Below, in pieces: positions 3,305 through 64,000 of a DNA stretch of 64,000 nt. This DNA comes from an uncultured Acidobacteriaceae bacterium (GTDB taxonomy: Bacteria > Acidobacteriota > Terriglobia > Bryobacterales > Bryobacteraceae). Below the pieces are notes generated by a model. The model was not told the DNA's origin. It saw only the letters and a list, made by a program, of their open reading frames with translations, and did no database searches. The first letter of the stretch is position 1; every line of letters begins with the position of its first letter. The stretch spans positions 176,711 through 240,710 of the forward strand of contig CAVTRH010000008.1 of the NCBI GenBank assembly GCA_963736985.1. The letters run 5' to 3'. The translations under genes were made by a program, and so were the position numbers.

Positions 3305-4660
3305 ATGAAACTGACGCTGGAGCCGCAGCGCCGTGTTTTTCGCGTCCGCGATCTGAATGCCGCTGTTCAGCAGATCTTCGAGGCTGAGTTCCGCTCCATC
3401 TGGGTAGCGGGCGAAATTTCAGGCTGCCGTCTCGCGCCCAGCGGGCATCATTATTTCTCGCTCAAAGATGAAGAAAGCCAGATCCGGTGCGTGCTGTTCA
3501 AAGGATCGGCGCGCTTCGCCCGATTCAAACCGCAGGACGGGCTCGCCGTCATCGCGCGCGGCAATCTCGAGGTCTACGAAGCACGTGGCGAATACCAGCT
3601 CATTGTGGATTTGCTCGAGCCGCAAGGAGCGGGCGCATTGCAACTCGCTTTCGAGCTGCTCAAAAAGAAACTCGCGGCCGAAGGTCTCTTCGACAAGTCG
3701 CGCAAGCGCCCGTTGCCCGCCATGCCGCGAAAAATCGGCATAGTGACTTCGCCCGCCGGCGCGGTCATTTCCGACATGTTGCACGTGTTGGAGCGGCGTT
3801 TTCAGGGACTGCACGTGCGGCTCTTTCCAGCTCAAGTGCAAGGCGAAGGTTCTGTCGAACAGGTGACCCGCGGCATCCGGTTTTTCAGTGAGAGCGGCTG
3901 GGCTGATGTCGTCATCGTTGCTCGCGGCGGCGGATCGATCGAGGATCTATGGACCTTTAACGAAGAGGCCGTCGCAAGGGCCATTGCGGCGTGCAAGGTC
4001 CCGGTGATTTCGGCGGTCGGGCATGAGACCGATTTCACTATCTCGGATTTCGTCGCGGATCACCGCGCTCCCACTCCCTCAGCAGCCGCCGAGATCGTCA
4101 TCTGCACGCGTGAAAGCCTGCTCGACCAGATTGCGGCCTGCAGAACCAAAGCCGTACAGGCGATTCGGTATCGCCTGCTTTCCTGCTCGCGGGATTTGCA
4201 TCAGCGCGGGACCGAGCGTGCCGCGACCATCCTGCATCGCGCGCTCTCGCGCCGTGCCCAACGCGTCGACGATCTCGACTACCAGTTGCGCAACGTGCAT
4301 CGGCGGAATTTCGATCAAAAGCGCAAACGGTTGGCCGACCTGACCCGGCGGCTCGAGGCCACCGATCTGCGCCTTCGTTTTGCGCAGAACCGGCATCGCG
4401 AGGAATTGCTGCGCCGCCGTCTGCTTAAGGGCATCGAAGGAGCGCTTTGGAAATCGCGCAAACGTGAAGAATCACTCGCCGGCCATTTGGGCCAGCTAAG
4501 TCCCTTGGCTGTGCTCGCGCGCGGTTATGCCATTGTTGAAAACGCAGATAAACGTATCTTGCGTGCCTCGAACGAGACGGCCGAGGGAGAACAACTGACC
4601 ATCCGGCTGCACCGGGGCGAATTGGACGCCGTCGTTCGCGCCACAAGAGAAGCGAAATGA
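3305..4660 (+). CDS. xseA: exodeoxyribonuclease VII large subunit
   Basis: OB-fold N-terminus ([16 protein letters not shown]…IWVAGEISG…[10 protein letters not shown]), catalytic core ([13 protein letters not shown]…[15 protein letters not shown]) and a long C-terminal coiled coil. The track ORF begins at GTG 3275. ATG 3305 (MKLTLEPQ) is the more likely start. Confidence 0.9.
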
Positions 4661-5382
4661 GAAAACGCGCGGTTTGCCTGCTGAGCGGCGGATTGGATTC
4701 GGCGACCTGCCTCGCCATTGCACGCGAGCAAGGTTACGAATGCTACTGCTTGTCGTTCGATTACGGCCAGCGCCATCGTATTGAGCTTGAGAGCGCACGT
4801 CGTCTCGCAACCAGCCTCTGTGCGAGCGAACATCGCGTCGCGAAAATCGATCTGCGAGTCTTCGGCGGTTCGGCCCTGACCAGTAACATCGATGTCCCGA
4901 AAGAACGGGCCGAAGAGGAGATGTCGCGCAGCATTCCCGTCACATACGTTCCCGCGCGCAATACGATTTTCTTGTCATTCGCCCTAGCCTATGCCGAGGT
5001 GGTGGGCGCATCCGACATCTTCATTGGCGTGAATGCCATCGACTATTCCGGCTACCCGGATTGCCGCCCGGAATTTATTCACGCCTTCGAAACAATGGCC
5101 AACCTCGCCACGCGCGCGGGCGTCGAGGGCGCAACGAAGATTGCCATACGCACACCCCTGATCGCAATGACCAAACCCGATATTGTGCGGAAAGCCGTTC
5201 AGCTTGGAGTCGATCTACGCTCGACGCACAGTTGCTACGATCCCGGCGCGAAAGGTGAGCCGTGCGGCCAATGCGACTCATGCATCCTGCGGCGCAAAGG
5301 CTTCGACGAGGCCGGCGTCGAAGACCCCGCGGCCGACAAGCGCAAAGGGCGTTTGTTGCCCGTTGTGCGCGCTTCTAAATGA
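4657..5382 (+). CDS. queC: 7-cyano-7-deazaguanine synthase
   Basis: Contains the SGGLDS PP-loop ([13 protein letters not shown]), FDYGQRH, and the C-terminal Zn cysteine cluster [10 protein letters not shown]. The start overlaps the xseA stop (ATGA). Confidence 0.95.
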
Positions 5383-6062
5383 AAATCGCCGAGATCTTTT
5401 ATTCCATCCAAGGCGAAGGTGCGTTGGTCGGCGTGCCATCGGTTTTTGTACGCACCTCCGGTTGCAACTTGCGCTGCACCTGGTGCGATACGCCGTACAC
5501 CTCCTGGCAGCCAGAAGGCCAAGACATGACGTTAGACGGCATGGTGTCGGCTGTTGCCGAATACCGCGTATCGCATGTGGTTGTCACGGGCGGCGAGCCG
5601 ATGATCGCACCGCAAATCGCGGAATTAACAGCGGCGCTGCGTAGCGCGGGTATGCATATCACGATCGAAACTGCCGGAACCGTTTATGCGCCGGTCACCT
5701 GTGATCTGATGAGCATCAGTCCGAAGCTCGAAAACTCGGTTCCATACGAGCGCGATGGAGGCCGCTGGGCCACACAACACAACCGGCTACGCTTTCAACC
5801 TGAAATCCTCAAGCAGCTCATGCGCGACTATGAATATCAGCTCAAATTTGTCGTAACCGCGCCGCATGACCTGAACGAGATCGCAAAAATTCGAGAAACG
5901 CTCGACGCACCGCGCTCTCGCATCATTCTCATGCCGGAAGGCACGGATAGCAATGCATTGCGCGAGCGCGGCGAGTGGCTTGCCGAAATCTGCAAAGCCG
6001 AAGGATATCGATTCAGCCCGCGTCTGCACGTAGATCTCTGGGGTAATCGTCGCGGCATCTAG
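5379..6062 (+). CDS. queE: 7-carboxy-7-deazaguanine synthase (radical SAM)
   Basis: IFYSIQGEG…[20 protein letters not shown] is the QueE CxxxCxxC-type cluster region. The start overlaps the queC stop (ATGA). Confidence 0.92.
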
Positions 6063-6081
6063 CGCTCGCTAAACTAGAGCT

Positions 6082-6876
6082 TTGAGCGAACCACAGAAAT
6101 TCCGCATCGGCGCGGTTAGCTATCTAAATACACTGCCGCTGGTTTGGGGGATGCTGCACGGCCCCGAACGCGAGCAGGTCGATTTGACGTCTTCAATTCC
6201 ATCGATCTGCGCGGAGCAGGTAGAGCAGGGAAGCGTCGACATCGGCTTAGTCCCGGTTGCGGAGATTGCGCGTCAGGGTCTTGAAATCGTTTCCGGAGTT
6301 GGCATCGCCTGCCTCGGCCCCGTGCGGAGCATTCTGCTGTTGTCGCGCGTGCCGATGAGCAAAGTTCGTACGCTCTCCGCCGACCTCAGCTCGCGAACCT
6401 CGGTCCAATTAGCGAGAGTAATTCTACGCGAGCGCTACGGCGCCGATCCGGAGATAACGCCCTGCGAGCCGGTTCTCGAGAAGATGCTCGCCGATGCCGA
6501 TGCGGCACTGATCATTGGCGACCCGGCCTTGCGACTCACGCCCGAAGAGTTGCCGTTCGAGTGCCTCGATTTAGGTGCGGAATGGCTCGCTTTAACTGAT
6601 CTGCCGATGCTCTTTGCCGCCTGGGCAGGGAAGCCGGGCTTGCCTGCCGAAGCGCTCGCGCACCTGACGCGCGCCTCTTACGAGTTCGGCCGCGCAAGAA
6701 TCGATCGGATCATCCAAAGCGAAGCAGCTCAACGCGGCATCTCTGCCCCTCTCGCCGAGCGATATCTTCGGCATCACATCCGCTATGAAATCGGCGCTCG
6801 CGAGCAGGAGGGCTTGCGCTTGTTCCTGCGCCTTGCGAACCTGAAGACAGTGGCAGCGGAGCGCGCAGGGCGTTAG
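6082..6876 (+). CDS. mqnA: chorismate dehydratase (futalosine pathway)
   Basis: FRIGAVSYLNTLPLVWGM… is the typical MqnA N-terminus and the fold is periplasmic-binding-protein-like. TTG start. The gene sits directly upstream of mqnC. Confidence 0.85.
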   Translation: MSEPQKFRIGAVSYLNTLPLVWGMLHGPEREQVDLTSSIPSICAEQVEQGSVDIGLVPVAEIARQGLEIVSGVGIACLGPVRSILLLSRVPMSKVRTLSADLSSRTSVQLARVILRERYGADPEITPCEPVLEKMLADADAALIIGDPALRLTPEELPFECLDLGAEWLALTDLPMLFAAWAGKPGLPAEALAHLTRASYEFGRARIDRIIQSEAAQRGISAPLAERYLRHHIRYEIGAREQEGLRLFLRLANLKTVAAERAGR

Positions 6877-6903
6877 GTGTCGCGATGGAGGAAGGCAGGA
6901 CGC

Positions 6904-7935
6904 ATGATTACCCGCAAGCAAGCCATCGACATGTTCCAAAGCGACGATCTCGTCGGTATTGGGATGGAAGCAGACGCGGTTCGTAGACGCCTTCACCCGG
7001 ACGGTATTGTCAGCTATATCATCGATCGCAACATTAATTACACGAATTTCTGCACCGAATATTGCAGCTTTTGCGCCTTTTACCGCCCAATGGGCCACAA
7101 AGAGGGTTACATTCTGCCAAAAGAAGTAATCCTTGCGAAAATTCAGGAGACCGTCGATCTCGGCGGCACAGGCATTCTGATGCAAGGCGGCCTGCATCCG
7201 GACCTAAAAATCGAATGGTACGAAGACCTGCTGCGCACGATTAAGTCCCGCTTCGATATCTGGTGCCATTGCTTCTCAGCGCCGGAGCTGGTGAACATCG
7301 CCGAAGTAAGTGGCTTGTCCCTGCGCGATACCATCGCCCGCCTGAGAGACTCGGGTCTCGATTCGATTCCTGGCGGCGGCGCGGAAATCCTCGACGAGGA
7401 TGTGCGACATCGCATCAGCAGGCTGAAGTGCTCCACGCAAGATTGGATTAATGTGCACCGAACCGCGCATTCCCTCGGCATGCGAACCACGGCAACCATG
7501 ATGTTCGGTACGGGCGAGACCATCGACCAACGCATGAACCATTTCGATATCGTCCGCCACATCCAGGAAGACACCGGCGGGTTCACCGCATTTATTCCCT
7601 GGTTCTTCCAGCGTGAGTACACCTCGCTAGGCCGATTCGTGAAGCAGGAAGCGACCGCCGTCGAGTACCTGAAAATGCTCGCGCTCTCGCGTATCTACCT
7701 GGATAATATCCTCAACGTCCAGGCCTCCTGGGTCACGCCCGGGCTGAAAGTCTGCCAGCTCGGCTTGCGCTTTGGAGGGAATGACGTCGGCAGCATTATG
7801 ATCGAGGAAAATGTCGTATCCGCCGCAGGCACGCATCACCGCGCCACGGAAGAGCAGCTCCGGCGCTTGATCCGTGACGCCGGCTTCATTCCCAAGCAGC
7901 GCGATACGCTCTACCGGACCTATTTCCTGAACTAG
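6904..7935 (+). CDS. mqnC: cyclic dehypoxanthinyl futalosine synthase (radical SAM)
   Basis: NINYTNFCTEYCSFCAFYR cluster, plus GILMQGGLHP and FIPWFFQ. QGG and FIPW favour MqnC over MqnE. ATG 6904 has GGAGGAAGG upstream; the track ORF starts at GTG 6877. Confidence 0.8.
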   Translation: MITRKQAIDMFQSDDLVGIGMEADAVRRRLHPDGIVSYIIDRNINYTNFCTEYCSFCAFYRPMGHKEGYILPKEVILAKIQETVDLGGTGILMQGGLHPDLKIEWYEDLLRTIKSRFDIWCHCFSAPELVNIAEVSGLSLRDTIARLRDSGLDSIPGGGAEILDEDVRHRISRLKCSTQDWINVHRTAHSLGMRTTATMMFGTGETIDQRMNHFDIVRHIQEDTGGFTAFIPWFFQREYTSLGRFVKQEATAVEYLKMLALSRIYLDNILNVQASWVTPGLKVCQLGLRFGGNDVGSIMIEENVVSAAGTHHRATEEQLRRLIRDAGFIPKQRDTLYRTYFLN

Positions 7936-7974: not shown

Positions 7975-10900
7975 TCAATTCACCTTCATCACGACAAATG
8001 TAATATCGTCATGCTGCGGAGCGTCGCCAACCCACTTGCGAATCTCTTGTGCGATGTGCTCTGTCATCTCCTGAACCGGCAAGTGAGCCACGTCCCGCAC
8101 AAGACTCTTCAATCGCTCTTCTCCGAATTCTTCCTCGTTTGTGTTGAGCGCTTCTGTGACACCGTCCGTGAAGGCCAGCAGCACGTCGCCAGAGCACAGA
8201 TCTACGGTCGCTTCCTCATAGCTCGCGGACGGAAACATGCCGATGATGGTGCCGCCCGTCTTCAGCTCGTCGATGGCCGCACCCGATTGGCTTCCATAAG
8301 CATTTTCGAGAGACCGCACCAGATATGGCGGATTGTGCCCCGCATTCACATACCGAAGCTGGCGCTTTTGCTCGTCGATTTGCGCATAGAAAAAAGTCGC
8401 GTAGCTGCTTGAGCCGGTCGAACCGTGCAGAAAGCGATTCATTTTGGCCGCAAGCTCCGGCAGCGAAATATTGCCTTCGCTTGCCAGGATGCGGAGCGAA
8501 GCGTGCACCACTGCCGTGATCAGCGCCGCGGCGACTCCTTTCCCTGCTACATCGGCCAGCGCGATGCCGATGCGATGATCGCCCACGTTCAGGAAATCGT
8601 AGTAATCGCCTCCGACACTGCGCGCCGGAAGCGTGAATGCTCCGAGCGAGCTCGCCGCGGTTTCGGGCGATTCGCGCGGCAAAAGCCGCTTTTGCACTTC
8701 GGCCGCAAGCTCCACGTCACGGCGCAGCTTTTCCTGTTCCACCACACGCTCCGTCAGCCGCGCATTCTCGATCATCAACGCGAATTGATCGGCGCACGCC
8801 GCCAGAAGTTGCTTCTCGCTGGGAGTGAACGCCCGCCGCTCGATTGGCGGACCAAACAACAACAGGCCAAGAATCTCGTTTTTTGTCCGCAATGCTACGG
8901 CGAGACGTATATCGACGTTCCTTAACATCTCGATTTCGGCCACATGCCGCGGCTTTTGTTCCATAGCCCAGCGCAGAGCGGAATCGAGATCGCCAGCCGT
9001 GAAGGCAAGAGGAGCGGGATAGAATTTCAGCCGGTTTATCAGAAAGCCGTTGGCGGGAATAGAGCAAACAACCTGCTGTTTTTCGGGTATTCTTGCGGCG
9101 CAACGATACTCCCCTTCCGAGATATTTTCAAGCAGCATCGCCGATTGAGCACGAATCCTCGCGCGCAAAGTCGCCACCGCGCTGCGAAGTGCTTCGGAAA
9201 AAGAATCCGAGTGACGGCTGGCGTCGATGAATTCCTTCAACAGCGCCGGTTCCAAGCCGGCCGCGCCGTCGTCTTCTGCAGCTGCGTAAACCACCGCTCC
9301 GTATCGCCTGCCGTCATTGCGAATCGCGACCATGGGCGAAACCAGAGTCGTGCGCCAGGCTGGGAAAAGTGACCCGAACATCGCCAGCGCGGCCAGAATC
9401 GCAACGGAATAGAGATAGGGGACTGCGCCGATATCGTGCAGGTGGAAGAACCGGGCAACCAGCCACGTAGCGAAGATCACGACAAGGGCGCCAAATCCAA
9501 TGCCATAGCCCGCCATTCTCAATCCGCTGCCCAGAACCAGCGTTAGCAGGTCGCGTCCAGTCGCGCCGAGAGCCATCCGCGTACCCATTTCCACGGTCCG
9601 CTGCCGCACCGAATACGAAGTCACGCCATACACACCCACCGCCGCCATCAGCAAAGCGGCGCATGCAAAAAACCCGACCACGGTCGAACTGATGCGCTGA
9701 AATGTAAGCGATTCGCTTTCGGCTTCCTTCATCGTGTGCACGTTATAGATAGGCTGCGTAGGGTCCGCATTCCGAACCGCGCGGCGAACTGCCGGAATCA
9801 GGGTAGTTGAAGGCAAGCTGGAGCGCACCACGAACTGTATCGGGTCCATCAGAGTAAGGGCGTTCAGTACATAAAGCTCCGGACGCGTTGCGGCGTCAAG
9901 TCCGTCGTCGCGAACATTGCCGGCGACCCCAATTACCTGCACCCGATCGCCATTGGGCGAGCTCAGGTGGGCAAAAGCTCCGATCGGATCGCGATCCGGC
10001 CAGAGGCGTTTCGCAGTCGCCTCATCGATAACGATCGAAACCGGGTTTTCATGCGCATCATGCTCGGTGAGAAAGCGGCCTTTCTCGAGCGGAATGCGCA
10101 TCGTCCGAAAATATTCGGAGCTGGCGACCACGAAAGCAATTGAATGATCGACGTCTAAACTCGGCGCCCGGCCCTCCGGGAACAGCGTGGTCTGAAGACA
10201 GCAACCCTCCAGCGGCAGCTGATTCGCAACCGCCGCGCTGCTCACCCCCGGAATGCCTTCCAACGCTTGCAAGAAACGGTTTTCATAGGCGAAGGTTTCT
10301 TTCACATTCACATTGCGGCGGACGCTGAGCTGGAACGCGATTAAGTGGTTCGGATCGAAACCGGGCCATACGCGATTCAATTGTTCGAGCTGCAAAAGCA
10401 AGAGCGCGCTAACCGACAATAATGTGAAAGCCAGCGCAATTTCGGCCACGACCAGCGAGTGCGAAAGCCTGCGAGTCCTGGCGCTGGCCGAAGATCGCAC
10501 GCCTTCATTCAGCACGTCGTTTGGTTGCGTCCGAACGGCCTGCCAGAGCGGCGCCAGCGACGAAAGCAATGCCGCAAGACATCCCACTGCCACAGCAAAC
10601 AGGACGACAGGCCAGTTGGTGGAGATCTGATCGGCGCGGGGAATGAAGTCGGCCGCGAGAGTAAGGATGAGTCTCACGAGGGCAACGCTTGCTCCGATTC
10701 CGAGCACTGCCGCGCCAATCGCGACGAAAAGGCTTTCGAAAAAAAACTGCAGCGCAAGCTGGCCCTGCCCGCCGCCGAGCGCGACGCGAATCGCAATTTC
10801 GCGCGATCGTCCAACTGATCTCCCCACCAGCAGCCCTGCCACATTGGCGCAAGTGATCAAAAGCAGTAGACCGGCCGCGCTGAACAGCAGCAGCAGAACA

Positions 10901-11718
10901 GGACGAATGTATCTGATGACGAATTCGCGAAGGCTGAAGACGATAGCGGTATATGACTTCTCGTGGTTCCGCGGATCTTCTTTTGCAATTTCCGAGGCAA
11001 CGCGTTTGCAATCGGCCCGAGCGTCAGCAACTGTGACGTGGGGCTTCAGCCTTCCGTATCCGGCGTATGGGGAATATCTGCGCCGTGCCTGTTCATCGCG
11101 CGGCATTCTCAGCGGAATCCAGACATCCGTATGAACGTTTTCGCTCGATACCCCGCTCACCGGGAGCGCAAACCAGGGCGGCATCACACCCAGCACCGTA
11201 TACAGTTCGCCATCGAGCGTAATAGAGCGCCCTATAATGCCAGAGCCGAAGCGGTTCCAAACACGGCTCGATATCACCGCAACGTTCGGGCCGTCCGAAT
11301 CGCGAAACAGCCGCCCGCGCATTGGATTGACACCTAGGTTGTCGATCAGCGACGGTGTAACCGGAACCCCCTGAATATGCTGCGGTTCGCCTGGCGATGT
11401 CAGATTGAAATCGCTGAAGATCATGTACCAGCCGAATGCGTCGAAGCTGTGCGTCCGGTCGCGGTAATCCTCGAGATCGGAATAAGAGAGCGCGGAAATG
11501 CCGCCCTGCTCGGCCCCGCTAATCCGTGTACTCCCGCCGAATAAAACTACCCAGCGATTGCCTTCCGTATAGGGAAGCGGCGCGAGCAGGACTGCGTTCA
11601 CGACCGTAAAAACGGCCGTCGCGCAGCCGATTCCGACCGCAAGCGCGATTACCGCCAAGGCCGCGAGTCCCTTTGCGTTTCTCCAAGACCGCCAGCTTTG
11701 CGAGAGAACCGTGAACAT
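7975..11718 (-). CDS. ADOP-type (MacB/FtsX-like, duplicated) permease fused in frame to GAF and PP2C/SpoIIE phosphatase domains
   Basis: The N-terminal ~800 aa start with MFTVLSQSWRSWRNAKGLAALAVIALAVGIGCATAVFTVVNAVLLAPLPY. They contain two FtsX-type 4-TM blocks, each after a large extracytoplasmic domain. The normal permease C-terminal motif (FPAWRTTLVSPMVAIRND) is not followed by a stop. The protein continues for 445 aa with a GAF-like region and then a PP2C region (SVGGDYYDF, ALADVAGKGVAAAL, YVNAGHNPPY, FTDGVTEA, HDDITFVVMKV). ATG 11718 is chosen over the track start at 11808. Confidence 0.85.
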   Translation of the reverse strand: MFTVLSQSWRSWRNAKGLAALAVIALAVGIGCATAVFTVVNAVLLAPLPYTEGNRWVVLFGGSTRISGAEQGGISALSYSDLEDYRDRTHSFDAFGWYMIFSDFNLTSPGEPQHIQGVPVTPSLIDNLGVNPMRGRLFRDSDGPNVAVISSRVWNRFGSGIIGRSITLDGELYTVLGVMPPWFALPVSGVSSENVHTDVWIPLRMPRDEQARRRYSPYAGYGRLKPHVTVADARADCKRVASEIAKEDPRNHEKSYTAIVFSLREFVIRYIRPVLLLLFSAAGLLLLITCANVAGLLVGRSVGRSREIAIRVALGGGQGQLALQFFFESLFVAIGAAVLGIGASVALVRLILTLAADFIPRADQISTNWPVVLFAVAVGCLAALLSSLAPLWQAVRTQPNDVLNEGVRSSASARTRRLSHSLVVAEIALAFTLLSVSALLLLQLEQLNRVWPGFDPNHLIAFQLSVRRNVNVKETFAYENRFLQALEGIPGVSSAAVANQLPLEGCCLQTTLFPEGRAPSLDVDHSIAFVVASSEYFRTMRIPLEKGRFLTEHDAHENPVSIVIDEATAKRLWPDRDPIGAFAHLSSPNGDRVQVIGVAGNVRDDGLDAATRPELYVLNALTLMDPIQFVVRSSLPSTTLIPAVRRAVRNADPTQPIYNVHTMKEAESESLTFQRISSTVVGFFACAALLMAAVGVYGVTSYSVRQRTVEMGTRMALGATGRDLLTLVLGSGLRMAGYGIGFGALVVIFATWLVARFFHLHDIGAVPYLYSVAILAALAMFGSLFPAWRTTLVSPMVAIRNDGRRYGAVVYAAAEDDGAAGLEPALLKEFIDASRHSDSFSEALRSAVATLRARIRAQSAMLLENISEGEYRCAARIPEKQQVVCSIPANGFLINRLKFYPAPLAFTAGDLDSALRWAMEQKPRHVAEIEMLRNVDIRLAVALRTKNEILGLLLFGPPIERRAFTPSEKQLLAACADQFALMIENARLTERVVEQEKLRRDVELAAEVQKRLLPRESPETAASSLGAFTLPARSVGGDYYDFLNVGDHRIGIALADVAGKGVAAALITAVVHASLRILASEGNISLPELAAKMNRFLHGSTGSSSYATFFYAQIDEQKRQLRYVNAGHNPPYLVRSLENAYGSQSGAAIDELKTGGTIIGMFPSASYEEATVDLCSGDVLLAFTDGVTEALNTNEEEFGEERLKSLVRDVAHLPVQEMTEHIAQEIRKWVGDAPQHDDITFVVMKVN

Positions 11719-11843
11719 CCGAGAAGAATGATAGCCTGTCACGCTTATGCGCGGACCTCCGGTTGTCCAGAAAAGGAAAAGGTGTGTAGAGTTCGTTTTG
11801 AACTCCACACACCTTAAACTTCCGGCCGCGCTGAAAACGGCTT

Positions 11844-12671
11844 CTAAGTGGCTTGCGTCTTCTTCGGCGCGCGAGTAGCCTTAATGCGCTTCGTGTCCAT
11901 CGCCTTATTGAACCAGTCTTCAGCCTGCGCAACATCAGCTTTCGCCTCTTCCGGGCTGTCATCCAGGTACGCTTTCATCCGATACAGCAGGTTAATGTAA
12001 GACATAGCGTCTTCGTTTTCCTTATCGCGCGCCAGGCACTCCTTAAGATCCTGAATGCCGTCTTGGACCAGCTTGTAATATTTGTCCTTCAACTCCGCGC
12101 GTTCCTTCTTATCCTTGAGCGGCGGAGGATCGGTGGCGCTCATCCGCTCCTGCACACGCGCGCTGACGATCGGCTGAAAGGCCTCATCGTAGTTGATCAC
12201 GCCCAGATAGTAATAAGGCTCCGCATCCTTCGAGTCCACTTCCATTCGGCGCTGATTCCACTTCCTCGCTTGTTCGAGCGCGGCGGTCTTCTGTTCCTGG
12301 TTGCCGGCCGTGGCCGAGTTGTAGGCCATGGACGCCATGGAAGCGAGTGCCAGGCCGTTCTTGGGGTCGGTCTTCAAAACCTTCTCGAATTCGCGCTGCG
12401 CCGCGTTATAGTTTTTCTGGTTATCCGGCGAATCCGCGCCCGGCACCCACTGGATCATGTAAGACGTCGCCAGATAGAGTTGGGCGTTTTGATTCGACGG
12501 ATCCAGTTTTACGGCTTCCTGGAAATGTTTTACAGCGTCGGCGTATTTATTGTTCCGATACGCCTGTACGCCCTTATTCATCTCATCCCGGGATTGCAGC
12601 TTGGCGCAACCCGTCGTCGCTAATATCAGTCCGGCGCATAGCGCCAACGTAAACCACTTAGACCTTCGCAT
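11844..12671 (-). CDS. TPR-repeat lipoprotein, last gene of the TonB-ExbBD cluster
   Basis: Lipobox signal (MRRSKWFTLALCAGLILATTGC) and TPR-like repeats (AVKHFQEAVKLDPSNQNAQLYLATSY…, REFEKVLKTDPKNGLAL…). Confidence 0.8.
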   Translation of the reverse strand: MRRSKWFTLALCAGLILATTGCAKLQSRDEMNKGVQAYRNNKYADAVKHFQEAVKLDPSNQNAQLYLATSYMIQWVPGADSPDNQKNYNAAQREFEKVLKTDPKNGLALASMASMAYNSATAGNQEQKTAALEQARKWNQRRMEVDSKDAEPYYYLGVINYDEAFQPIVSARVQERMSATDPPPLKDKKERAELKDKYYKLVQDGIQDLKECLARDKENEDAMSYINLLYRMKAYLDDSPEEAKADVAQAEDWFNKAMDTKRIKATRAPKKTQAT

Positions 12672-12691
12672 GTGCGCAGCCTCGTGTCCTG

Positions 12692-13120
12692 TTATTGTCC
12701 TGCCTCTACCTTCGGCGTCATGATGCCAACCTTATCGAGACCGGCCCCTTTGGCATCGTCAATCGCCTGCGCGACATATCGATAATCGATGTCCGGATCG
12801 CCCTTGACGAACACAACCTTTGTTGCACGAGTCTTGAAAATGTCCTCGAGCTGTGTCGTCAGGTCTCTCTCCTTCACCGGCTGCCCATTGATCTCCATGC
12901 TCGCGTCCTTCTTCACCTCGATGACGACCGTCGGGTCCTGATTCGGCGGCGGTGGCGGCTGGTTCGGCGGCGGTGGTTGAGGCACCAGCGCGTCCAATCC
13001 GTGCGGCGTCAAAGGCGTGATCACCATAAAGATGATCAGCAGCACCAGCAATACATCAATCATCGGAGTTACATTGACGTCGCACATTGCGCCGCCCTTT
13101 TTTCCAACTGCCATTGACAT
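12692..13120 (-). CDS. exbD: biopolymer transport protein ExbD/TolR
   Basis: INVTPMIDVLLVLLIIFMV single TM segment plus a periplasmic domain. AGGAG lies 10 nt upstream of the ATG. Confidence 0.9.
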   Translation of the reverse strand: MSMAVGKKGGAMCDVNVTPMIDVLLVLLIIFMVITPLTPHGLDALVPQPPPPNQPPPPPNQDPTVVIEVKKDASMEINGQPVKERDLTTQLEDIFKTRATKVVFVKGDPDIDYRYVAQAIDDAKGAGLDKVGIMTPKVEAGQ

Positions 13121-13147
13121 AGGATGTGAACTCCTTCGAGTCGAAAA

Positions 13148-13591
13148 TTACAATCCCAAACTTTTTCTATTCTTGTCCTGCACGGCTTCCGTGATCAGTC
13201 CAATCGTATCTACGCCGTCGGTTCGCAGCGCGTCAATCACGTCGGTCACGCTCGCAAAGCGCGCTCTCGCGTCGGCCCGGATATAGACCGTCTTATCCGA
13301 ACGGTTCTGCTGTAGATCCTTGACCTTACCCGGCAACTGGTCTACTTGTATCATCTGGTTGCCCGGGCTGAGGTAATCCTTGCCATCTCGCGTGATCGAA
13401 ATCAAGATTGCGTCCTCTTTATCGGCTTCCTGCATCTTGATGTCGTTGTGCGTCTTTACCATGTTCACGGTGACGCCTTTAGACAACATAGGCGTAATGA
13501 CCATGAAGATGATGAGCAGCACTAACATCACATCCACCATGGGCGTAACGTTGATGTCCGAAACCACGGGCGGCGCCTTCATTAATTTCAT
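13148..13591 (-). CDS. exbD: biopolymer transport protein ExbD/TolR (second copy)
   Basis: INVTPMVDVMLVLLIIFMVITP motif. The start is ATG 13591 (MKLMKAPP) with GGAG upstream; the track ORF extends to 13624. Confidence 0.9.
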   Translation of the reverse strand: MKLMKAPPVVSDINVTPMVDVMLVLLIIFMVITPMLSKGVTVNMVKTHNDIKMQEADKEDAILISITRDGKDYLSPGNQMIQVDQLPGKVKDLQQNRSDKTVYIRADARARFASVTDVIDALRTDGVDTIGLITEAVQDKNRKSLGL

Positions 13592-13705
13592 GTTTCGCTC
13601 CTTTCGATCGCAATGCGCGCTCAAGCCAACTGCCTTAGCCGGGAGCAGCCTCGGAGAGCCGCTCCCAGCCTCGATTCAACTCGAGCGTAAGCCTAAGTGA
13701 CGGAT

Positions 13706-14476
13706 TTAGACGCCGCGCGTAGCGGCAGCGGTGGTCGCGCCGACGCCGGCGCGTTGCGTGCGCTTCAAAAAGTAGTCGATCAGCTCGGAGCTGGAGTTGC
13801 CCATCTCCACGTCGAACGCCTCGATGCGGTTCGTGAAATAGTTAAACATCCACACCGCGGGGATGGCGACGAACAGACCGACCGCAGTAGTGATCAGCGC
13901 TTCGGAAATACCGCCGGCAACCGCGCCCAAACCAGTCGATTTCGAAGTCGAAATGGATTTGAACGCGTTCATGATGCCGACCACCGTTCCGAATAAGCCG
14001 ACAAAGGGCGCCGTAGAGCCAATCGTCGCTAAGCTGCTCACGCCGCGCTTCAGTTCGGCATGCACGATAGCTTCCGCGCGTTCCAGAGCCCGGCGCGAAG
14101 CCTCGATCTCTTCACCCGGAATCTCCGTGCTGGCCTGATGAGCCTTGAATTCCTGCAGACCCGCGACCACGACCTTCGCTAGGTGGCTCTTGTTAAACCG
14201 ATCGGCGATCTTGATGGCCTCGTCCAGCTTGCCTTCCCGCAGCGCTCCGGCAACCGCCGGGGCAAACGCCCGCGATTGTTTCCGCGCCGCGTTATACGCG
14301 ATCAGACGGTCAATCATAACTCCGATCGACCAAGCGGACATAATGAACAGGACGATCACGACGCATTTCGCCGCGACGCCCATGTTGCCCCACACCGTAC
14401 GAGGATCGAAACTAAGCGTCCCTCCCTCGGCTTCCTGCAGGAGCCAAAATGCCCATACGTGAAGTTGAAGTAACAT
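13706..14476 (-). CDS. exbB: MotA/TolQ/ExbB proton-channel protein
   Basis: Three TM segments and the conserved C-terminal region LATIGSTAPFVGLFGTVVGIMNAF…ISEALITTAVGLFVAIPA. Confidence 0.9.
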   Translation of the reverse strand: MLLQLHVWAFWLLQEAEGGTLSFDPRTVWGNMGVAAKCVVIVLFIMSAWSIGVMIDRLIAYNAARKQSRAFAPAVAGALREGKLDEAIKIADRFNKSHLAKVVVAGLQEFKAHQASTEIPGEEIEASRRALERAEAIVHAELKRGVSSLATIGSTAPFVGLFGTVVGIMNAFKSISTSKSTGLGAVAGGISEALITTAVGLFVAIPAVWMFNYFTNRIEAFDVEMGNSSSELIDYFLKRTQRAGVGATTAAATRGV

Positions 14477-14533
14477 GCTTATCTCCTAAGTTGAATCGAA
14501 TTAGTTGAATCGAACAAAAGTAACAAACCGCAC

Positions 14534-15268
14534 TTACTGGCTCAACGTGAAATTCACGATGATATCCGTAATCACATCCACTGGCTGGCCGTTCAGCAGC
14601 GTTGGCCTGTATTTCCATTGCAGCACTGCTTCTCTCGCTGCGTTCACCAACAGTGGATGCCCGCGCACGAGAGTTAAATTCACTATGCTGCCTTCCTTGT
14701 TGATTGTGGCAGTGAACTCAACCGTGCCTTGCACGCGTGCCGATTTCGCCAGGGGAGGATAAACCGGCTGAACCTTGCGGATCAGGTTCGCCTCGGCCAC
14801 GCGCCCGCCGATCTGAACGGGTCCTTGCGGTTTCTTCGGCGGAGGAGGTGGAGGAGGTGCCGCGCCCACACCGCCCAGCACGCCACCTAATACGCCACCG
14901 GCCGCGCCGCCCGCTTCACCGGTTCCGCCGACCACGCCCATTCCGGTATCAGGCGGCGGAGCAGCCTCTTCGATGTGGTTTATCTGTTTTGGAATTACTC
15001 TCGGCGCCATCAACTGATTCGCGATGAACTGCCGGACCACCGGCTTCGGCTGCACCTTCACCTGCGGTGGTGGGGGCGGCGGTGGCGGTGGTGGGGGCGG
15101 CGGTGCCACCAGCATGCTCTTCAATTGAGCGCTGGGCAACGCCTCAGTGTAGATCAACGGAATCAGAATGAAAACACCAATGACGCAAATCTCCAATATT
15201 AACGACAGGGCGATAGTATACGGCTTCTTCGTTTTCTGTGCGCCGTCAACGAATGTTTGATCAAACAT
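14534..15268 (-). CDS. tonB: energy transducer TonB
   Basis: N-terminal TM anchor, two poly-proline tracts (14 Pro and 7 Pro), and a C-terminal TonB domain (…VQPVYPPLAKSARVQGTVEFTATINKEGSIVNLTLVRGHPLL…A.EAVLQWKYRPTLLNGQPV). Confidence 0.85.
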   Translation of the reverse strand: MFDQTFVDGAQKTKKPYTIALSLILEICVIGVFILIPLIYTEALPSAQLKSMLVAPPPPPPPPPPPPPQVKVQPKPVVRQFIANQLMAPRVIPKQINHIEEAAPPPDTGMGVVGGTGEAGGAAGGVLGGVLGGVGAAPPPPPPPKKPQGPVQIGGRVAEANLIRKVQPVYPPLAKSARVQGTVEFTATINKEGSIVNLTLVRGHPLLVNAAREAVLQWKYRPTLLNGQPVDVITDIIVNFTLSQ

Positions 15269-21168: not shown

Positions 21169-22728
21169 TCAGAACCACGAAAACACCGCACCCGTAGTCG
21201 CGTTGAAGGCCCACACCGCGGCGGCATTTCCCACAAACACGTCCGTCACGCCGCTCCCGACAAAACTGAAGCTCTGCGCGCCAGCGTTCCATTGATACAG
21301 ATCTCCCGCGGCATTCACGCCCCAAACCGACCCATCGAACGCCACCTTTACCTGCATCAACGTGCCGGGCACACTCACCCAGCGGTTCGCAGCGAGGTCA
21401 TAGCGGTAAATCTGGTGCTCGGCGTTCACGCCCCAAACGTTATTCGCGTTGCCGACCGAGATCTGCACCAATGCTCCCGGAACGTTCACCCACGATCCCA
21501 CGCCATCAAAGCGATAGATCTGCTGCTGCGCGTTGAGGCCCCACACCGTGCCGTCCGCGCCCACCGACAGCGTCTGCAGTGCGCCTGGTATGTTGGCCCA
21601 CGTGTTATTCGAGAAATTGTAAGTAAATACTAGGCCGGCTGAATTGATGCCCCAGACCGAGTGATCGGCTCCCAGTTGAATGAAATTCAACTGGCCCGGA
21701 ATATTATTCCAGCTTCTCGAGGAAGGATCCCATTGATAGATACTGCCGGACGTATCGAGAGCCCAGACATTGCCGCCCGCGCCCACCGAGATCTGCGCCA
21801 AAGCTGGGGGAACCGAGACGGCGAGGAAAGTTTGCGTCGCGGGGTTGAAGTATTCTCCTGCGTTTCCGCTCACTCCCCACACACTTCCATCCGCCCCCAC
21901 CGAAATCTGGCTGAATGAGCCGGGCACCGAGGTGAGCGCCTGGAATCCGCGCGTCGGCGCGTTTTGGAGAGTGAAGATTTCTTGCGCGCTATTGAGACCC
22001 CAGACGGCGCCGCTGCCGCCGACAGAAATGCTGCTCAAAGTACCTGGAATCTGAACCAGAGCCCGGCTCTGCCCGTTATAGAAGTAAATATTCCCGGATG
22101 CATCCAGCGCATAGATGCTCCCGCCGGACCCGACCGCGACTTGTGCGATGGAAACGTCGGTCGGCCCGGCGATCCAACTGCCTGCCTCGTAGCCGTAGCC
22201 GATACCGTTATTCAGTCCCACCACATAGCCGTCGCTACCCACCGCAATTTGCGTGAACGCGGGGTTCGCCAGGTACTGGAAATATCCGGTCCCTGGGTTA
22301 TACCAGAAAGCTGCGCCCGAGCTGTTGATCCCGTACACCGCGCCAGCCGACCCGACCGCCAGATGCGCGAGTTGCCCCGGGACTTGGACAAAGGACCCGA
22401 TTTGCGCGTTGTAATGATAAATGTTCGATTGGGCATTGAGACCCCAGACATCACCGTCCGCGGCCACCACGATCTGCGCTAGAGTTCCTGGAACATTGAT
22501 CCAATCCGAATGCGCAGAATCCCAGTGGTAAATCTGTCCCTGCTCGTTCAAACCCCACACTGCGGTGCTCGACGCAACGGCAATCTGCGACAGCGTGCCC
22601 GGAATATTCGTCCACCCGCTGCTGCTGTAAGTAAAGATCTGTTGAGAGCTGTTGAGGCCCCACACGCTGCCATCCGCACCGACTGAGATTTCCTGCAGGG
22701 CTCCAGGGACGATTGTGAAGGACGGCGA
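21169..22728. repeat. copy B of the ~1.56 kb duplicated segment
   Basis: See copy A. At the protein level I count 6 differences in the last 172 aa and about 27 in the first 172 aa of the shared module. Confidence 0.85.
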
Positions 22729-24033: not shown

Positions 24034-24071
24034 ATTCCGCTCCACGAACCAGATCAGGCCGCCGCTTCAGT

Positions 24072-42301: not shown

Positions 42302-42384
42302 AGTCGTGGGATTGGCGTCTGAATGTTAGACTGAGAGCGAACTGCGCGGGAACAGGTGCGCCCGTCGCGGTCCGCATATCCCAA

Positions 42385-42474
42385 GGAGAGATGGCCGAGT
42401 GGTTGAAGGCGCACGCTTGGAAAGCGTGTTTAGGGGAAACTCTAACGTGGGTTCGAATCCCACTCTCTCCGCCA
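42385..42474 (+). tRNA. tRNA-Ser (anticodon GGA)
   Basis: Folded by hand. Acceptor GGAGAGA/TCTCTCC, D arm GCC…GGC, anticodon stem CACGC/GCGTG with loop TTGGAAA, a long variable arm (type II), T arm GTGGG-TTCGAAT-CCCAC, discriminator G, and an encoded CCA. Confidence 0.95.
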
Positions 42475-42583
42475 GTTTAGGTCCTGCAACTCGCGCGAGA
42501 TAGTCTCCCGATCTAGAAATTGCGTTGGCAATGCTGCGGAAAATGATATCACCGCGATACTATTCGGGGCTACGATTAAACCA

Positions 42584-42811
42584 ATGAAGCGTCCGAAGGC
42601 GGTAAAGGAAGAAGCGCGACAGAAGCAACAGCGAGCCCAGAAAATCGCCGCGGCGAACCCAAAGAAACCAGTGCCGAACCCGAAGGTCAATCAGCGGGAA
42701 AAGGTCATGACGGATGAAGACTTCGATTTCATCTTCGAACACCTCACCGGCGAAGAGCTGCAGAAGTTCATCGACCAGGCCGAGCAGGAACTCGCCGCCA
42801 AGAAAAAGTGA
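42584..42811 (+). CDS. hypothetical small charged protein (75 aa)
   Basis: ORF only: a Lys/Gln-rich N-terminus and an acidic helical C-terminus. No motif recognised. Confidence 0.35.
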   Translation: MKRPKAVKEEARQKQQRAQKIAAANPKKPVPNPKVNQREKVMTDEDFDFIFEHLTGEELQKFIDQAEQELAAKKK

Positions 42812-42863
42812 TGCATCGCTGCTCGCAAACTGACGTGATACACGCACGACTACCTCAGTGGGT

Positions 42864-42896
42864 GGTAGTGGGTCAGTTTCAAACTGACCCACTACC
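42864..42896. terminator. perfect 16-bp-stem palindrome (possible bidirectional terminator) abutting the IS insertion site
   Basis: GGTAGTGGGTCAGTTT-c-AAACTGACCCACTACC. The 3' arm ends at 42896 and the left target-site duplication of the IS starts at 42897. There is no U-tract, so terminator function is uncertain. Confidence 0.35.
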
Positions 42897-42904
42897 GTGT
42901 AGGT
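42897..42904. repeat. target-site duplication (left)
   Basis: GTGTAGGT immediately outside the inverted repeat. IS1595-family elements are described as making about 8-bp duplications. Confidence 0.8.
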
Positions 42905-42935
42905 GGTGCAAATATACTTGACACACCCACTGATT
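42905..42935. repeat. IS terminal inverted repeat (cargo-side end)
   Basis: GGTGCAAATATACTTGACACACCCACTGATT. It is the reverse complement of 46053-46083 except at 2 positions. Confidence 0.88.
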
Positions 42936-42998
42936 GAATGCGACACTATTGGAGCGACGATTCGGTCGCTCCTGCCAAACGGCGGATTTGTAGTGTCT

Positions 42999-43766: not shown

Positions 43767-43886
43767 AGCTCATACACCTAGTTGTACTTGGTTCGATGTT
43801 TGCCGTCGTGCTCATATATTCGCTCATTTCAATCATCAGAATTGTTCGGGATTTGGCTCAGCGCGGGTCGGATACTATAGTCGAGC

Positions 43887-44102: not shown

Positions 44103-44106
44103 CCCG

Positions 44107-44688: not shown

Positions 44689-44800
44689 TGACAGCAGCGA
44701 TCCAGCAACTGTTCGGGCGATGCATCTGTTGCAAAGCTCCTTTCCGCCGTTGCGTTCGAAAACTGATACACTACGGCTAAAGGATGGCTAGAGCGCTACA

Positions 44801-45055: not shown

Positions 45056-45063
45056 CTTCCTGC

Positions 45064-46035: not shown

Positions 46036-46052
46036 GTCTCAAGTATCCACTA

Positions 46053-63789: not shown

Positions 63790-64000
63790 TCATTCGTACC
63801 GAATAGCAGCCATCGCGCGGCGCGCCGGAACATAAGCTGCTAAAACCGCTACTCCGCTAACAATCGCGCAAACCGAAACAAACGTGATCGGGCCAGCGCT
63901 ACCGACTCCGTAAAGCAGGCTGGAGAAGCTGGATAACAATCTCGCGGCGATCAATGCGACGACGCCTCCGATGAATACGCTGATCGCCGCCAGCCGAAAG
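63790..64000 (-). CDS. ADOP/FtsX-type permease, C-terminal end only (runs off the window end)
   Basis: My minus-strand translation gives …FRLAAISVFIGGVVALIAARLLSSFSSLLYGVGSAGPITFVSVCAIVSGVAVLAAYVPARRAMAAIRYE*, which is the canonical last TM segment and tail of this permease family. The stop codon is at 63790-63792. Confidence 0.75.
   Translation of the reverse strand, partial: FRLAAISVFIGGVVALIAARLLSSFSSLLYGVGSAGPITFVSVCAIVSGVAVLAAYVPARRAMAAIRYE

What the first reader, a model, noticed from the sequence alone, without database searches (positions are those of the whole stretch)
7975..11718. In-frame fusion of an orphan MacB/FtsX-type (ADOP) permease to cytoplasmic GAF and PP2C/SpoIIE phosphatase domains
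ADOP permeases normally end just after the last TM segment. The second family member in this window (63790..64000) does so, ending …YVPARRAMAAIRYE*. In this gene the equivalent tail (…FPAWRTTLVSPMVAIRND) runs on without a stop for 445 aa. Those residues carry a GAF-like domain and a complete PP2C signature set (GGDYYD, DVAGKG, NAGHNPP, TDGVTEA, DDITFVVMKV). No partner ABC ATPase gene is adjacent. MacB-type permeases are thought to transmit conformational change across the membrane, and the related BceB permeases act as sensors. A permease hard-wired to a serine phosphatase suggests that this 'orphan transporter' signals inward from the periplasm, for example into an RsbU-like partner-switching or Ser/Thr-phosphorylation circuit. 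I do not know of a described example.
Basis: partly seen in the sequence, partly recalled or inferred. Interest (0 to 1): 0.65.

Follow-up and report, generated by a model that had tools for sequence, protein, structure and literature searches.

The report
Permease fused to a protein phosphatase
One real, uninterrupted gene joins a MacB/FtsX-type "orphan" membrane permease to a cytoplasmic GAF domain and an RsbU/SpoIIE-type serine phosphatase; the fusion is conserved across soil Acidobacteriota, also occurs as two adjacent genes, and most likely lets the permease act as a membrane sensor for the phosphatase, a role no paper I could find describes.

Summary
Window 7975..11718 (-) is one 1247-aa ORF: a complete ADOP duplicated permease (TIGR03434, 708 bits against a 622 cut-off, residues 7-802; 8 TM segments, two MacB periplasmic domains), a 34-residue linker, a GAF domain, a fixed-length helical linker and a SpoIIE/PP2C domain (Pfam 3.5e-49) with all metal-binding Asp invariant.

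It is not an assembly artefact. More than 120 clusters of full-length homologues (53-90% identity) from independent assemblies share the architecture. All domains show dN/dS of about 0.1-0.2.

New evidence: in Blastocatellia/Pyrinomonadaceae the same two parts are separate, tightly adjacent genes. There the phosphatase carries its own 2-TM hairpin with a short loop, as in intramembrane-sensing BceS kinases, which depend on the MacB-type BceB permease.

No ATPase, STAS, kinase or regulator gene is conserved nearby, so the substrate and the energy source remain unknown. The TM8-to-GAF linker is variable in length and predicted disordered, so coupling is through a tether or docking, not a rigid helix.

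Best reading: a transporter-coupled sensor phosphatase, a new variant of a known principle. It is common in databases under generic names and undescribed in the literature I searched.

The parts
7975..11718 (-). Complete CDS of the ADOP-GAF-PP2C fusion protein (1247 aa plus stop at 7975-7977)
11779..11815 (-). Terminator-like hairpin (16-bp stem plus T-run) between the upstream TPR gene and the ATG. It argues for an independent transcript and against the GTG-11808 start.
11611..11667 (-). TM1 (residues 18-36), preceded by a basic cytoplasmic N-terminus
   Evidence: hydropathy
10903..11610 (-). Periplasmic domain 1 (MacB_PCD, about residues 37-272)
   Evidence: dN/dS 0.11-0.20
10519..10902 (-). 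FtsX module 1: TM2-TM4 with the major coupling-helix motif R300..R304-E307..R311-A313-L314-G315 (invariant)
10399..10455 (-). TM5 (residues 422-440), start of the second permease repeat
9688..10398 (-). Periplasmic domain 2 (MacB_PCD, about residues 441-677)
10198..10203 (-). Vicinal Cys506-Cys507 ('PL.GCC') in periplasmic domain 2. Found in 12 of 15 fused genes and in none of 15 split or unlinked ADOPs. Candidate input site.
9313..9687 (-). FtsX module 2: TM6-TM8, second coupling-helix motif (R705, E710, G712, R714, A716, G718) and the C-terminal short helix ...PAWRTTLVSPMVAIRND where ordinary ADOPs stop
9199..9312 (-). Junction and flexible linker (residues 803-840): least conserved segment, length varies 34-47 aa in the family, and about residues 786-824 have AF2 pLDDT below 50
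8749..9198 (-). GAF domain (about residues 841-990), no canonical cNMP-binding NKFDE motif visible by eye
   Evidence: (pLDDT 80-94)
8629..8748 (-). Helical linker GAF to PP2C (residues 991-1030); length invariant in 32 of 32 homologues; 25% of its residues invariant
7978..8628 (-). PP2C/SpoIIE-type phosphatase domain (residues 1031-1247) with invariant D1038, D1041, D1056, G1059, D1185, G1186, D1237, D1238
63790..64000 (-). 3' end of a second, ordinary (unfused) ADOP-type permease, used as the comparator (ends ...AIRYE*)

Best explanation
The gene encodes a transporter-coupled sensor phosphatase.

- Input: the ADOP half is an 8-TM pseudo-dimer of two MacB/FtsX repeats, each with a large periplasmic domain. 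It is the input module.
- Signal path: its conformational state is set by something bound or handled on the periplasmic or membrane side, possibly while cycling with an ATPase encoded elsewhere. That state is read by the tethered cytoplasmic GAF domain. It passes through a rigid, fixed-length helical linker to an RsbU/SpoIIE-type PP2C domain, switching its Mn/Mg-dependent phosphoserine/threonine phosphatase activity.
- Output: the output is dephosphorylation of an unidentified cytoplasmic phosphoprotein, most likely a STAS- or SiaC-like partner-switching protein.
- Coupling: because the TM8-GAF tether is flexible, coupling probably works by docking and undocking on the permease's cytoplasmic face, or by controlled dimerisation of two PP2C modules. 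It probably does not work by piston or rotation of a continuous helix.

Shown: architecture, topology, intact catalytic site, conservation of every part, and genomic linkage of the two parts when they are unfused.
Inferred: direction of signalling, the stimulus, the substrate, and any ATPase requirement.
For: 1. The architecture is complete and exceeds the curated thresholds. Eight TM segments place the tail in the cytoplasm.
2. More than 120 full-length 90%-identity clusters share it, at 53-90% identity. Fused genes occur in Bryobacterales, Acidobacteriaceae, other Terriglobia and Vicinamibacterales. At least 15 representatives of about 1250 aa exist at the 50% clustering level.
3. dN/dS is about 0.1-0.2 in both periplasmic domains, the TM modules, GAF and PP2C, so no half is decaying.
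4. Rosetta-stone evidence: six genome loci, mostly Pyrinomonadaceae/Blastocatellia, have a separate ADOP gene abutting a separate GAF-PP2C gene, with 3-24 nt gaps or a small overlap and variable order. In an ADOP-blind metagenome scan, 3 of 5 informative loci show the same pairing.
5. The split phosphatases have a 2-TM hairpin with a loop of about 12 residues. This is the layout of intramembrane-sensing BceS, which is wholly controlled by the MacB-type BceB permease (PMC5985334, PMC10314905).
6. The same GAF-PP2C module is attached to other membrane inputs in the same phylum, including 7-10 TM domains and PDZ-containing N-termini. It therefore behaves as an exchangeable output module.
7. The GAF-PP2C linker has an invariant length (28 and 23 residues, 32 of 32). 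This fits the coiled-coil linker regulation described for RsbU-type phosphatases (PMC12143880).
8. The nearest solved relatives are P. aeruginosa RssB, the Rv1364c RsbU domain, SiaA and SpoIIE.
9. A periplasmic Cys-Cys motif is specific to the fused clade.
Against: - No substrate or partner (STAS, RsbW-like kinase, sigma factor, Hanks kinase) lies in the 64-kb window or recurs next to homologues.
- No dedicated ATPase is known. Only 1 of 15 fused loci has a MacB-type ATPase nearby, and there it belongs to a neighbouring MacAB-like pump.
- The TM8-GAF linker is variable in length and predicted disordered, which weakens any simple mechanical coupling.
- Split-form linkage is not universal. Two of five informative metagenome loci lack an adjacent ADOP.
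- There is no experimental or expression data, and the AF2 model is a monomer with moderate confidence (pLDDT 74).
Confidence: 0.55

Rival explanations
1. Reverse logic: the cytoplasmic GAF-PP2C module regulates the permease. The GAF domain senses a cytoplasmic metabolite, and the phosphatase dephosphorylates the permease itself, its ATPase or an accessory protein, so that transport or mechanotransmission is tuned to the cell's state.
For: - GAF domains usually bind small cytoplasmic ligands.
- The coupling-helix motifs that contact an NBD are fully conserved, so the permease probably still works with an ATPase.
- In the Bce system the kinase also feeds back on transporter ATPase activity (PMC10314905).
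- The flexible tether fits an enzyme acting on nearby targets.
Against: - The same GAF-PP2C module is attached to several unrelated membrane N-termini, including a bare 2-TM hairpin. That is typical of an output domain that receives signals, not of a transporter-specific regulator.
- No conserved Ser/Thr-kinase gene that would phosphorylate the permease lies nearby.
- RsbU-type PP2Cs are known to be controlled by their N-terminal domains (PMC12143880).
Confidence: 0.17
2. Anchor or scaffold only: the permease half merely holds or localises the phosphatase at the membrane (as the 10-TM domain of SpoIIE localises it), or the two halves act independently and were fused for co-expression. The GAF domain would be the only real sensor.
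For: - The TM8-GAF tether is disordered and variable in length.
- Relatives use quite different membrane anchors.
- No partner or stimulus is known.
Against: - An anchor does not need two periplasmic domains of about 230 aa each. Both are under purifying selection as strong as the PP2C (dN/dS 0.10-0.22).
- A fused-clade-specific invariant periplasmic Cys-Cys exists.
- The ADOP-phosphatase pairing recurs as separate genes in another class, where the phosphatase already has its own membrane anchor. Anchoring therefore cannot be the reason for that association.
Confidence: 0.15
3. Artefact: a lost stop codon, frameshift or chimeric assembly joined an ordinary ADOP gene to a downstream GAF-PP2C gene.
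For: Reads from this exact genome could not be examined. The public runs found hold only related strains and leave 9278-9304 uncovered at 85% identity or more. A split arrangement does exist in another class.
Against: - More than 120 independent full-length clusters from NCBI, JGI, ENA and Logan assemblies have the same continuous ORF.
- A 90%-identical Logan contig and an 85%-identical NCBI MAG carry it intact.
- Fused tails form their own clade, lack the 2-TM hairpin of split forms and have a characteristic junction.
Confidence: 0.01

Closest known systems
Bce-type modules (BceAB transporter plus intramembrane-sensing histidine kinase BceS) of Firmicutes
   Same: A MacB/FtsX-architecture permease that is a fusion of two half-transporters serves as the actual sensor for a cytoplasmic signalling enzyme. 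That enzyme has no extracellular sensor of its own and contacts the permease in the membrane. The split Blastocatellia form (ADOP plus 2-TM GAF-PP2C) copies this layout.
   Different: The output is a PP2C serine phosphatase with a GAF domain, not a HAMP-DHp-CA histidine kinase. In Terriglobia it is covalently fused to the permease C-terminus. The permease has 8 TM segments and two periplasmic domains (BceB has 10 TM and one). No adjacent ATPase or response regulator is present. The phylum is Gram-negative Acidobacteriota. No homology of the output parts is claimed.
RsbU/RsbP/RsbZ/SiaA-type sensor PP2C phosphatases (partner-switching initiators)
   Same: SpoIIE-family PP2C with intact metal-binding Asp. 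An N-terminal regulatory domain (here GAF, as in C. difficile RsbZ) is joined by a fixed-length helical linker. The nearest solved structures are RssB (P. aeruginosa), Rv1364c, SiaA and SpoIIE.
   Different: The domain upstream of the GAF is a whole MacB-type permease. No STAS/RsbV, RsbW or SiaB/SiaC genes were found nearby. NCBIfam SiaA scores 63.8 bits against a 700 cut-off and RssB_Pseudo 51.9 against 700, so it is an equivalog of neither.
SpoIIE of Bacillus subtilis
   Same: A polytopic membrane N-terminus, a central regulatory region and a C-terminal PP2C in one chain. The Pfam SpoIIE domain matches at 167.8 bits.
   Different: SpoIIE's 10-TM domain is unrelated to FtsX/MacB and has no large extracytoplasmic domains. 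TIGR02865 (spore_II_E) scores 27.5 bits against a 490.8 cut-off. Acidobacteria are not sporulating Firmicutes.
ADOP family (TIGR03434) and MacB / LolCE / FtsX type VII ABC permeases
   Same: Full-length match to the ADOP model above its cut-off. Duplicated FtsX plus MacB_PCD, with conserved major coupling-helix motifs. MacB-family proteins work by mechanotransmission rather than transmembrane transport (PMC5985334).
   Different: Ordinary ADOPs stop at ...ALR.E, just after the last TM segment. This clade continues for 445 residues into a signalling module. The proposed direction of transmission (outside to inside) is the reverse of MacB/FtsEX.

Membership tests
ADOP family duplicated permease (NCBIfam TIGR03434) | Whole-protein score above the curated cut-off, with end-to-end coverage of the 803-position model | tested here: met
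   708.2 bits against a 622.3 cut-off; residues 7-802 match model positions 7-803
ADOP family duplicated permease (NCBIfam TIGR03434) | Duplicated FtsX permease with two MacB-like periplasmic domains; 2 x 4 TM segments | tested here: met
   Pfam FtsX x2 and MacB_PCD x2; eight hydropathy peaks
ADOP family duplicated permease (NCBIfam TIGR03434) | 'Orphan': no adjacent ABC ATPase gene | tested here: met
   None in the 64-kb window. One of 15 fused loci and none of 6 split loci have a MacB-type ATPase nearby.
MacB-type (type VII) ABC transporter | Works with a cytoplasmic nucleotide-binding domain through the major coupling helix | tested here: inconclusive
   Coupling-helix motifs are invariant, but no partner NBD was identified. 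The rest of the genome cannot be searched.
PPM/PP2C phosphatase, SpoIIE/RsbU subfamily (Pfam PF07228) | Domain score above the gathering threshold over the full model | tested here: met
   167.8 bits against 25; model positions 2-191 of 192
PPM/PP2C phosphatase, SpoIIE/RsbU subfamily (Pfam PF07228) | Metal-coordinating Asp residues in the GGDxxD, DVxGxG, TDG and DD(I/L)T motifs | tested here: met
   D1038, D1041, D1056, G1059, D1185, G1186, D1237 and D1238 are invariant in 32 sequences and in the split forms
PPM/PP2C phosphatase, SpoIIE/RsbU subfamily (Pfam PF07228) | PP2C fold closest to the partner-switching phosphatases | tested here: met
   Foldseek top hits are RssB (P. aeruginosa; TM-score normalised to target 0.78-0.80), Rv1364c, SiaA and SpoIIE. 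phmmer against the PDB gives the same set.
PPM/PP2C phosphatase, SpoIIE/RsbU subfamily (Pfam PF07228) | Phosphoserine/threonine phosphatase activity on a phospho-STAS-like substrate | not testable with these tools
No STAS or RsbW gene lies in the window or recurs near homologues.
GAF domain | Profile match above threshold and a GAF alpha/beta fold | tested here: met
   PF01590 25.5 bits against 22.4; PF13492 28.1 against 27. The AF2 segment has pLDDT 80-94 with a mixed helix/strand pattern. GAF structures appear among the fold hits (ranks 47 and 49). The margin over threshold is small.
Bce-type sensing module | BceS-like histidine kinase, BceR response regulator and BceA ATPase encoded with the permease | tested here: not met
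   No HK, RR or ATPase lies next to fused or split genes. It is an analogue by mechanism only.
SiaA (NF038263), RssB_Pseudo (NF045505), SpoIIE (TIGR02865) equivalogs | Score above the equivalog cut-off | tested here: not met
   63.8 against 700; 51.9 against 700; 27.5 against 490.8

The most novel reading that the evidence does not exclude
The fused clade may reveal what the whole enigmatic ADOP family does. On this reading, ADOPs are not ATP-driven transporters at all. They are ATPase-independent transmembrane receptors that run MacB-type mechanotransmission in reverse, from outside to inside. The clade-specific periplasmic Cys-Cys pair would act as a redox or metal switch. ADOP-PP2C would then define a new class of bacterial one-component transmembrane receptor phosphatases.
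Probability: 0.15. Interest if true: 0.85.

Novelty: new variant of a known kind. Interest (0 to 1): 0.58.

Why it matters
ADOP permeases are one of the signature expanded gene families of soil Acidobacteria, a dominant and poorly understood soil phylum. As far as I know (background knowledge, not tested here), none has an established function or a known ATPase partner.

A conserved clade in which the permease is tied to a signalling phosphatase gives the first testable handle on what these proteins do. The tie is covalent in Terriglobia and by gene adjacency in Blastocatellia.

It would also extend two principles:
- "Transporter as sensor", known from BceAB-BceS, would extend from histidine kinases in Firmicutes to PP2C phosphatases in a Gram-negative phylum.
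- A MacB-type permease would join the list of input domains that control RsbU-type phosphatases through the conserved helical linker.

If signalling runs inward, it would be mechanotransmission in the reverse direction.

Tried and rejected
1. Read support across the junction: four soil-metagenome runs hold only 5-10% of the sampled 31-mers, and only short contigs of related strains. Nothing covers 9278-9304, so the test is uninformative.
2. Exact-sequence lookup of the window's own protein: not on record.
3. Conserved gene neighbourhood of the fused gene: none. Clustering of flanking ORFs across 15 loci recovered only shadow ORFs and unrelated ABC ATPases.
4. Search for STAS, anti-sigma, Hanks kinase or ATPase genes in the window by Pfam survey of about 55 ORFs: none.
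5. Dedicated ATPase: the L010 hit turned out to be part of a neighbouring FtsX-HlyD-ATPase pump. L012's ATPase lies 7.5 kb away.
6. Literature: searches for ADOP/'duplicated orphan permease', FtsX+SpoIIE+GAF+PP2C, Acidobacteria+SpoIIE+FtsX, MacB_PCD+SpoIIE and RsbU+Acidobacteria+permease found no description. The library excludes most subscription journals.
7. Full-length AF2 model: not attempted. The protein has 1247 aa against a 1200-aa limit, and no coordinates or PAE are returned to judge docking.
8. Single versus multiple fusion events: the NJ trees have no bootstrap. The Vicinamibacterales ADOP half groups away from the Terriglobia fused clade, while its tail groups inside it. This hints at domain shuffling or a long-branch artefact and is left open.
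9. The loci from Ignavibacteria, Calditrichia and Bacteroidota with long tblastn spans are tandem arrays of PP2C paralogues, not ADOP fusions.

Full report

The minus strand carries one uninterrupted ORF from 11808 to 7975. Homologues begin at the residue that matches the ATG at 11718 (MFTVLSQSWRSW...). A strong terminator-like hairpin at 11815-11779 lies between the upstream TPR gene and that ATG.

- Pfam finds MacB_PCD x2, FtsX x2, GAF (842-985) and SpoIIE (1047-1246, E 3.5e-49).
- NCBIfam finds ADOP (TIGR03434) at 708 bits against a cut-off of 622. It covers residues 7-802 and the whole 803-position model.
- The permease is therefore complete, and the following 445 residues are an addition.
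- The comparator ADOP tail at the right edge of the window (...AIRYE*, stop at 63790) is also real.
- A Pfam survey of about 55 window ORFs found no ABC ATPase, STAS, anti-sigma factor or Ser/Thr kinase.

**2. Artefact or biology?**

The suggested read check was uninformative. No public run holds this genome, and the fragments of related strains leave the poorly conserved junction uncovered. Comparative evidence settles the question instead.

- A search of 5.8 billion proteins returned more than 120 clusters of full-length homologues (about 1240-1290 aa, 53-90% identity, about 100% coverage). They come from NCBI, JGI, ENA and Logan assemblies, and each carries FtsX, MacB_PCD and SpoIIE.
- A scan of one genome per GTDB species found intact fused ORFs in Bryobacterales, Acidobacteriaceae, other Terriglobia and one Vicinamibacterales MAG. 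One MAG carries two paralogues.
- A 90%-identical Logan contig and an 85%-identical MAG carry the same 1247-1249-codon ORF.
- Against these, dN/dS is 0.10-0.28 in every structured domain, including both periplasmic domains, and up to 0.44 only in the short linker in the closest comparison.

The fusion is a stable, selected gene.

**3. Anatomy**

- Topology: hydropathy gives eight TM segments (18-36, 273-291, 330-348, 371-389, 422-440, 678-696, about 740-758, 763-781). Periplasmic domains of about 230 aa follow TM1 and TM5. An even number of TM segments and a basic N-terminus place the tail in the cytoplasm.
- Coupling helices: the TM2-TM3 and TM6-TM7 loops carry the FtsX coupling-helix motif (RxxxRE[IT]A[IV]RxALGA). 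It is invariant in the fused clade and shared with all ADOPs. The surface that contacts an ATPase in MacB-type systems (PMC5985334) has not decayed.
- Junction linker: after the last short helix (...PAWRTTLVSPMVAIRND) comes a polar linker. It is the least conserved part, varies from 34 to 47 residues and is predicted disordered (pLDDT below 50).
- GAF and second linker: the GAF domain is confidently modelled (pLDDT 80-94). It is followed by a helical linker whose length is identical in all 32 aligned homologues.
- PP2C: this is the most conserved part (33% invariant positions). All metal-binding Asp are invariant. Its nearest solved relatives by sequence and by fold are the PP2C domains of P. 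aeruginosa RssB, M. tuberculosis Rv1364c (RsbU domain), SiaA and SpoIIE. These belong to the partner-switching branch, not to PstP/Stp1.

**4. New evidence bearing on function**

(a) Split forms.
- In six genome loci, mostly Pyrinomonadaceae/Blastocatellia, an ordinary ADOP gene ending ...ALRYE* abuts a separate GAF-SpoIIE gene on the same strand. The gaps are 3-24 nt or a small overlap, and the order is ADOP-PP2C, PP2C-ADOP or ADOP-PP2C-ADOP.
- Those loci were ranked with a query that included ADOP, so I repeated the search in metagenome contigs with the phosphatase alone. Of seven close relatives, three have an ADOP immediately adjacent, two have room for one and none present, and two contigs are too short to judge.
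- The association is frequent and independent of fusion, but it is not obligatory.

(b) The 2-TM hairpin.
- The split phosphatases carry an N-terminal hairpin of two TM helices with a loop of about 12 residues. The fused tails lack it.
- This is the layout of 'intramembrane-sensing' BceS kinases. They cannot sense on their own and are fully controlled by the MacB-type BceB permease through TM-TM contacts (PMC5985334, PMC10314905).

(c) A modular output.
- The same GAF-PP2C module also occurs behind 7-10-TM domains, behind PDZ-containing N-termini and on its own. It behaves as an exchangeable output module.
- This agrees with the published view that RsbU-type phosphatases are driven by diverse N-terminal sensors through a conserved helical linker (PMC12143880).

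(d) Trees.
- NJ trees place all fused tails in one clade and the split tails in another. The Terriglobia fused ADOP halves are monophyletic.
- The Vicinamibacterales ADOP half groups elsewhere. This could reflect domain shuffling or a long-branch artefact, and the trees have no support values.

(e) A clade-specific periplasmic motif.
- A vicinal Cys-Cys ('PL.GCC', C506-C507) in periplasmic domain 2 is present in 12 of 15 fused genes and in none of 15 split or unlinked ADOPs. It is a candidate clade-specific input site.

**5. Mechanism**

The best-supported reading (about 0.55) is a transporter-coupled sensor phosphatase. The ADOP half is the input. Its conformational state is read by the tethered GAF domain and passed through the rigid linker to the PP2C switch. 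The PP2C then dephosphorylates an unidentified cytoplasmic phosphoprotein, probably of the partner-switching type.

Because the TM8-GAF tether is flexible, I favour docking and undocking on the permease's cytoplasmic face, or regulated pairing of two PP2C modules, over helix-piston coupling.

- Shown: architecture, topology, catalytic competence at the sequence level, selection on every part, and genomic linkage of the parts.
- Inferred: direction of signalling, stimulus, substrate and ATPase dependence.

Rivals:
- The phosphatase regulates the permease (about 0.17).
- The permease is only an anchor, or the two halves act independently (about 0.15). This is weakened by the strongly selected periplasmic domains and by the split form, in which the phosphatase already has its own anchor.
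- Artefact (about 0.01).

**6. What is missing**

- No partner gene is conserved near the fused gene; the neighbourhoods are entirely different in each relative.
- Only one locus (L010) has a MacB-type ATPase nearby, and there it belongs to an adjacent FtsX-HlyD-ATPase pump.
- The rest of the source genome could not be searched.

**7. Comparison with known systems and novelty**

- It is a member of the ADOP family and of the SpoIIE/RsbU PP2C family. The thresholds and defining residues were tested and met.
- It is not an equivalog of SiaA, RssB or SpoIIE; the scores fall far below their cut-offs.
- It is not a Bce module, since no kinase, regulator or ATPase is present. The Bce module is nevertheless what it most resembles in how it works.
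- Seven full-text searches found no paper that describes an FtsX/MacB/ADOP-PP2C fusion. Databases name these proteins only 'ADOP family duplicated permease', 'SpoIIE family protein phosphatase' or 'predicted permease'.

I therefore rate it a new variant of a known kind. It is widespread, real and undescribed, and it gives a testable entry point to the function of an expanded but uncharacterised Acidobacterial family. There is no experimental support yet. Interest 0.58.

Noticed in passing
window 10198-10203 (-), residues C506-C507: Vicinal Cys-Cys in periplasmic domain 2 ('PL.GCC'). It is invariant in the core fused clade (12 of 15 fused genes) and absent from all 15 split or unlinked ADOPs, from the fused paralogue clade (L012, L013) and from the Vicinamibacterales fusion (L015). 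It could be a redox- or metal-sensitive site.
   Followed up: partly
window 11844-15268 (-): Immediately upstream on the same strand lies a TonB (14534-15268), ExbB (13706-14476), ExbD (13148-13624), ExbD (12692-13120) and TPR-lipoprotein (11844-12671) cluster. A terminator-like hairpin at 11815-11779 closes it. The neighbourhood is not conserved in relatives.
   Followed up: partly
window 4657-7935 (+): QueC and a radical-SAM (QueE-like) gene are followed by futalosine-pathway menaquinone genes: a VitK2_biosynth/MqnA-like gene (6082-6876) and a CofH/MqnC-like radical SAM gene (6877-7935). They converge on the 3' end of the fusion gene with a gap of only 39 nt.
   Followed up: no
window 42000-46100: The GC content dips to 0.53-0.54 (window mean about 0.58). 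The region holds an IS1595-family transposase (45064-46035, -) and two ORFs without Pfam hits (42903-43766 +, 44107-44688 -). It is probably a small mobile insertion.
   Followed up: no
window 21169-24045 (-): A large protein (958 aa) with four Tectonin-domain stretches (E 2.7e-106) plus an FG-GAP repeat, next to a PD40 beta-propeller protein (25233-27380). Tectonin domains are uncommon in bacteria.
   Followed up: no
L010 4621-7920: In one Acidobacteriaceae MAG the fused gene is directly preceded by a MacAB-like set: a 4-TM FtsX permease (397 aa), a HlyD-type adaptor (490 aa) and a COG1136-type ATPase. The ATPase is broken into three frames, probably by long-read indels. This is the only fused locus with such an ATPase nearby.
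   Followed up: partly
L017 7923-11683: The fused gene is split into six overlapping frames in this MAG. This is most likely indel errors in a long-read assembly rather than a pseudogene.
   Followed up: no
L009 and L013 (same MAG, CAVTXC01): One Bryobacterales MAG carries two fused paralogues (50% and 41% identical to the window protein). L012 and L013 form a separate fused subclade that lacks the Cys-Cys motif.
   Followed up: partly
L076, L077, L080, L084, L145, L150, L163: Ignavibacteria, Melioribacteraceae, Calditrichia and Bacteroidota contigs carry tandem arrays of 2-4 PP2C genes. Several have 7-10 predicted TM segments upstream of the phosphatase domain. They are not ADOP fusions.
   Followed up: no
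L034-L074, L094-L137 (many): The most abundant Acidobacterial relatives of the tail are 860-940-aa proteins with 7-10 TM-like segments and no Pfam match in the first 450-560 residues (some have a PDZ domain). This is an uncharacterised polytopic membrane input for the same GAF-PP2C module.
   Followed up: partly
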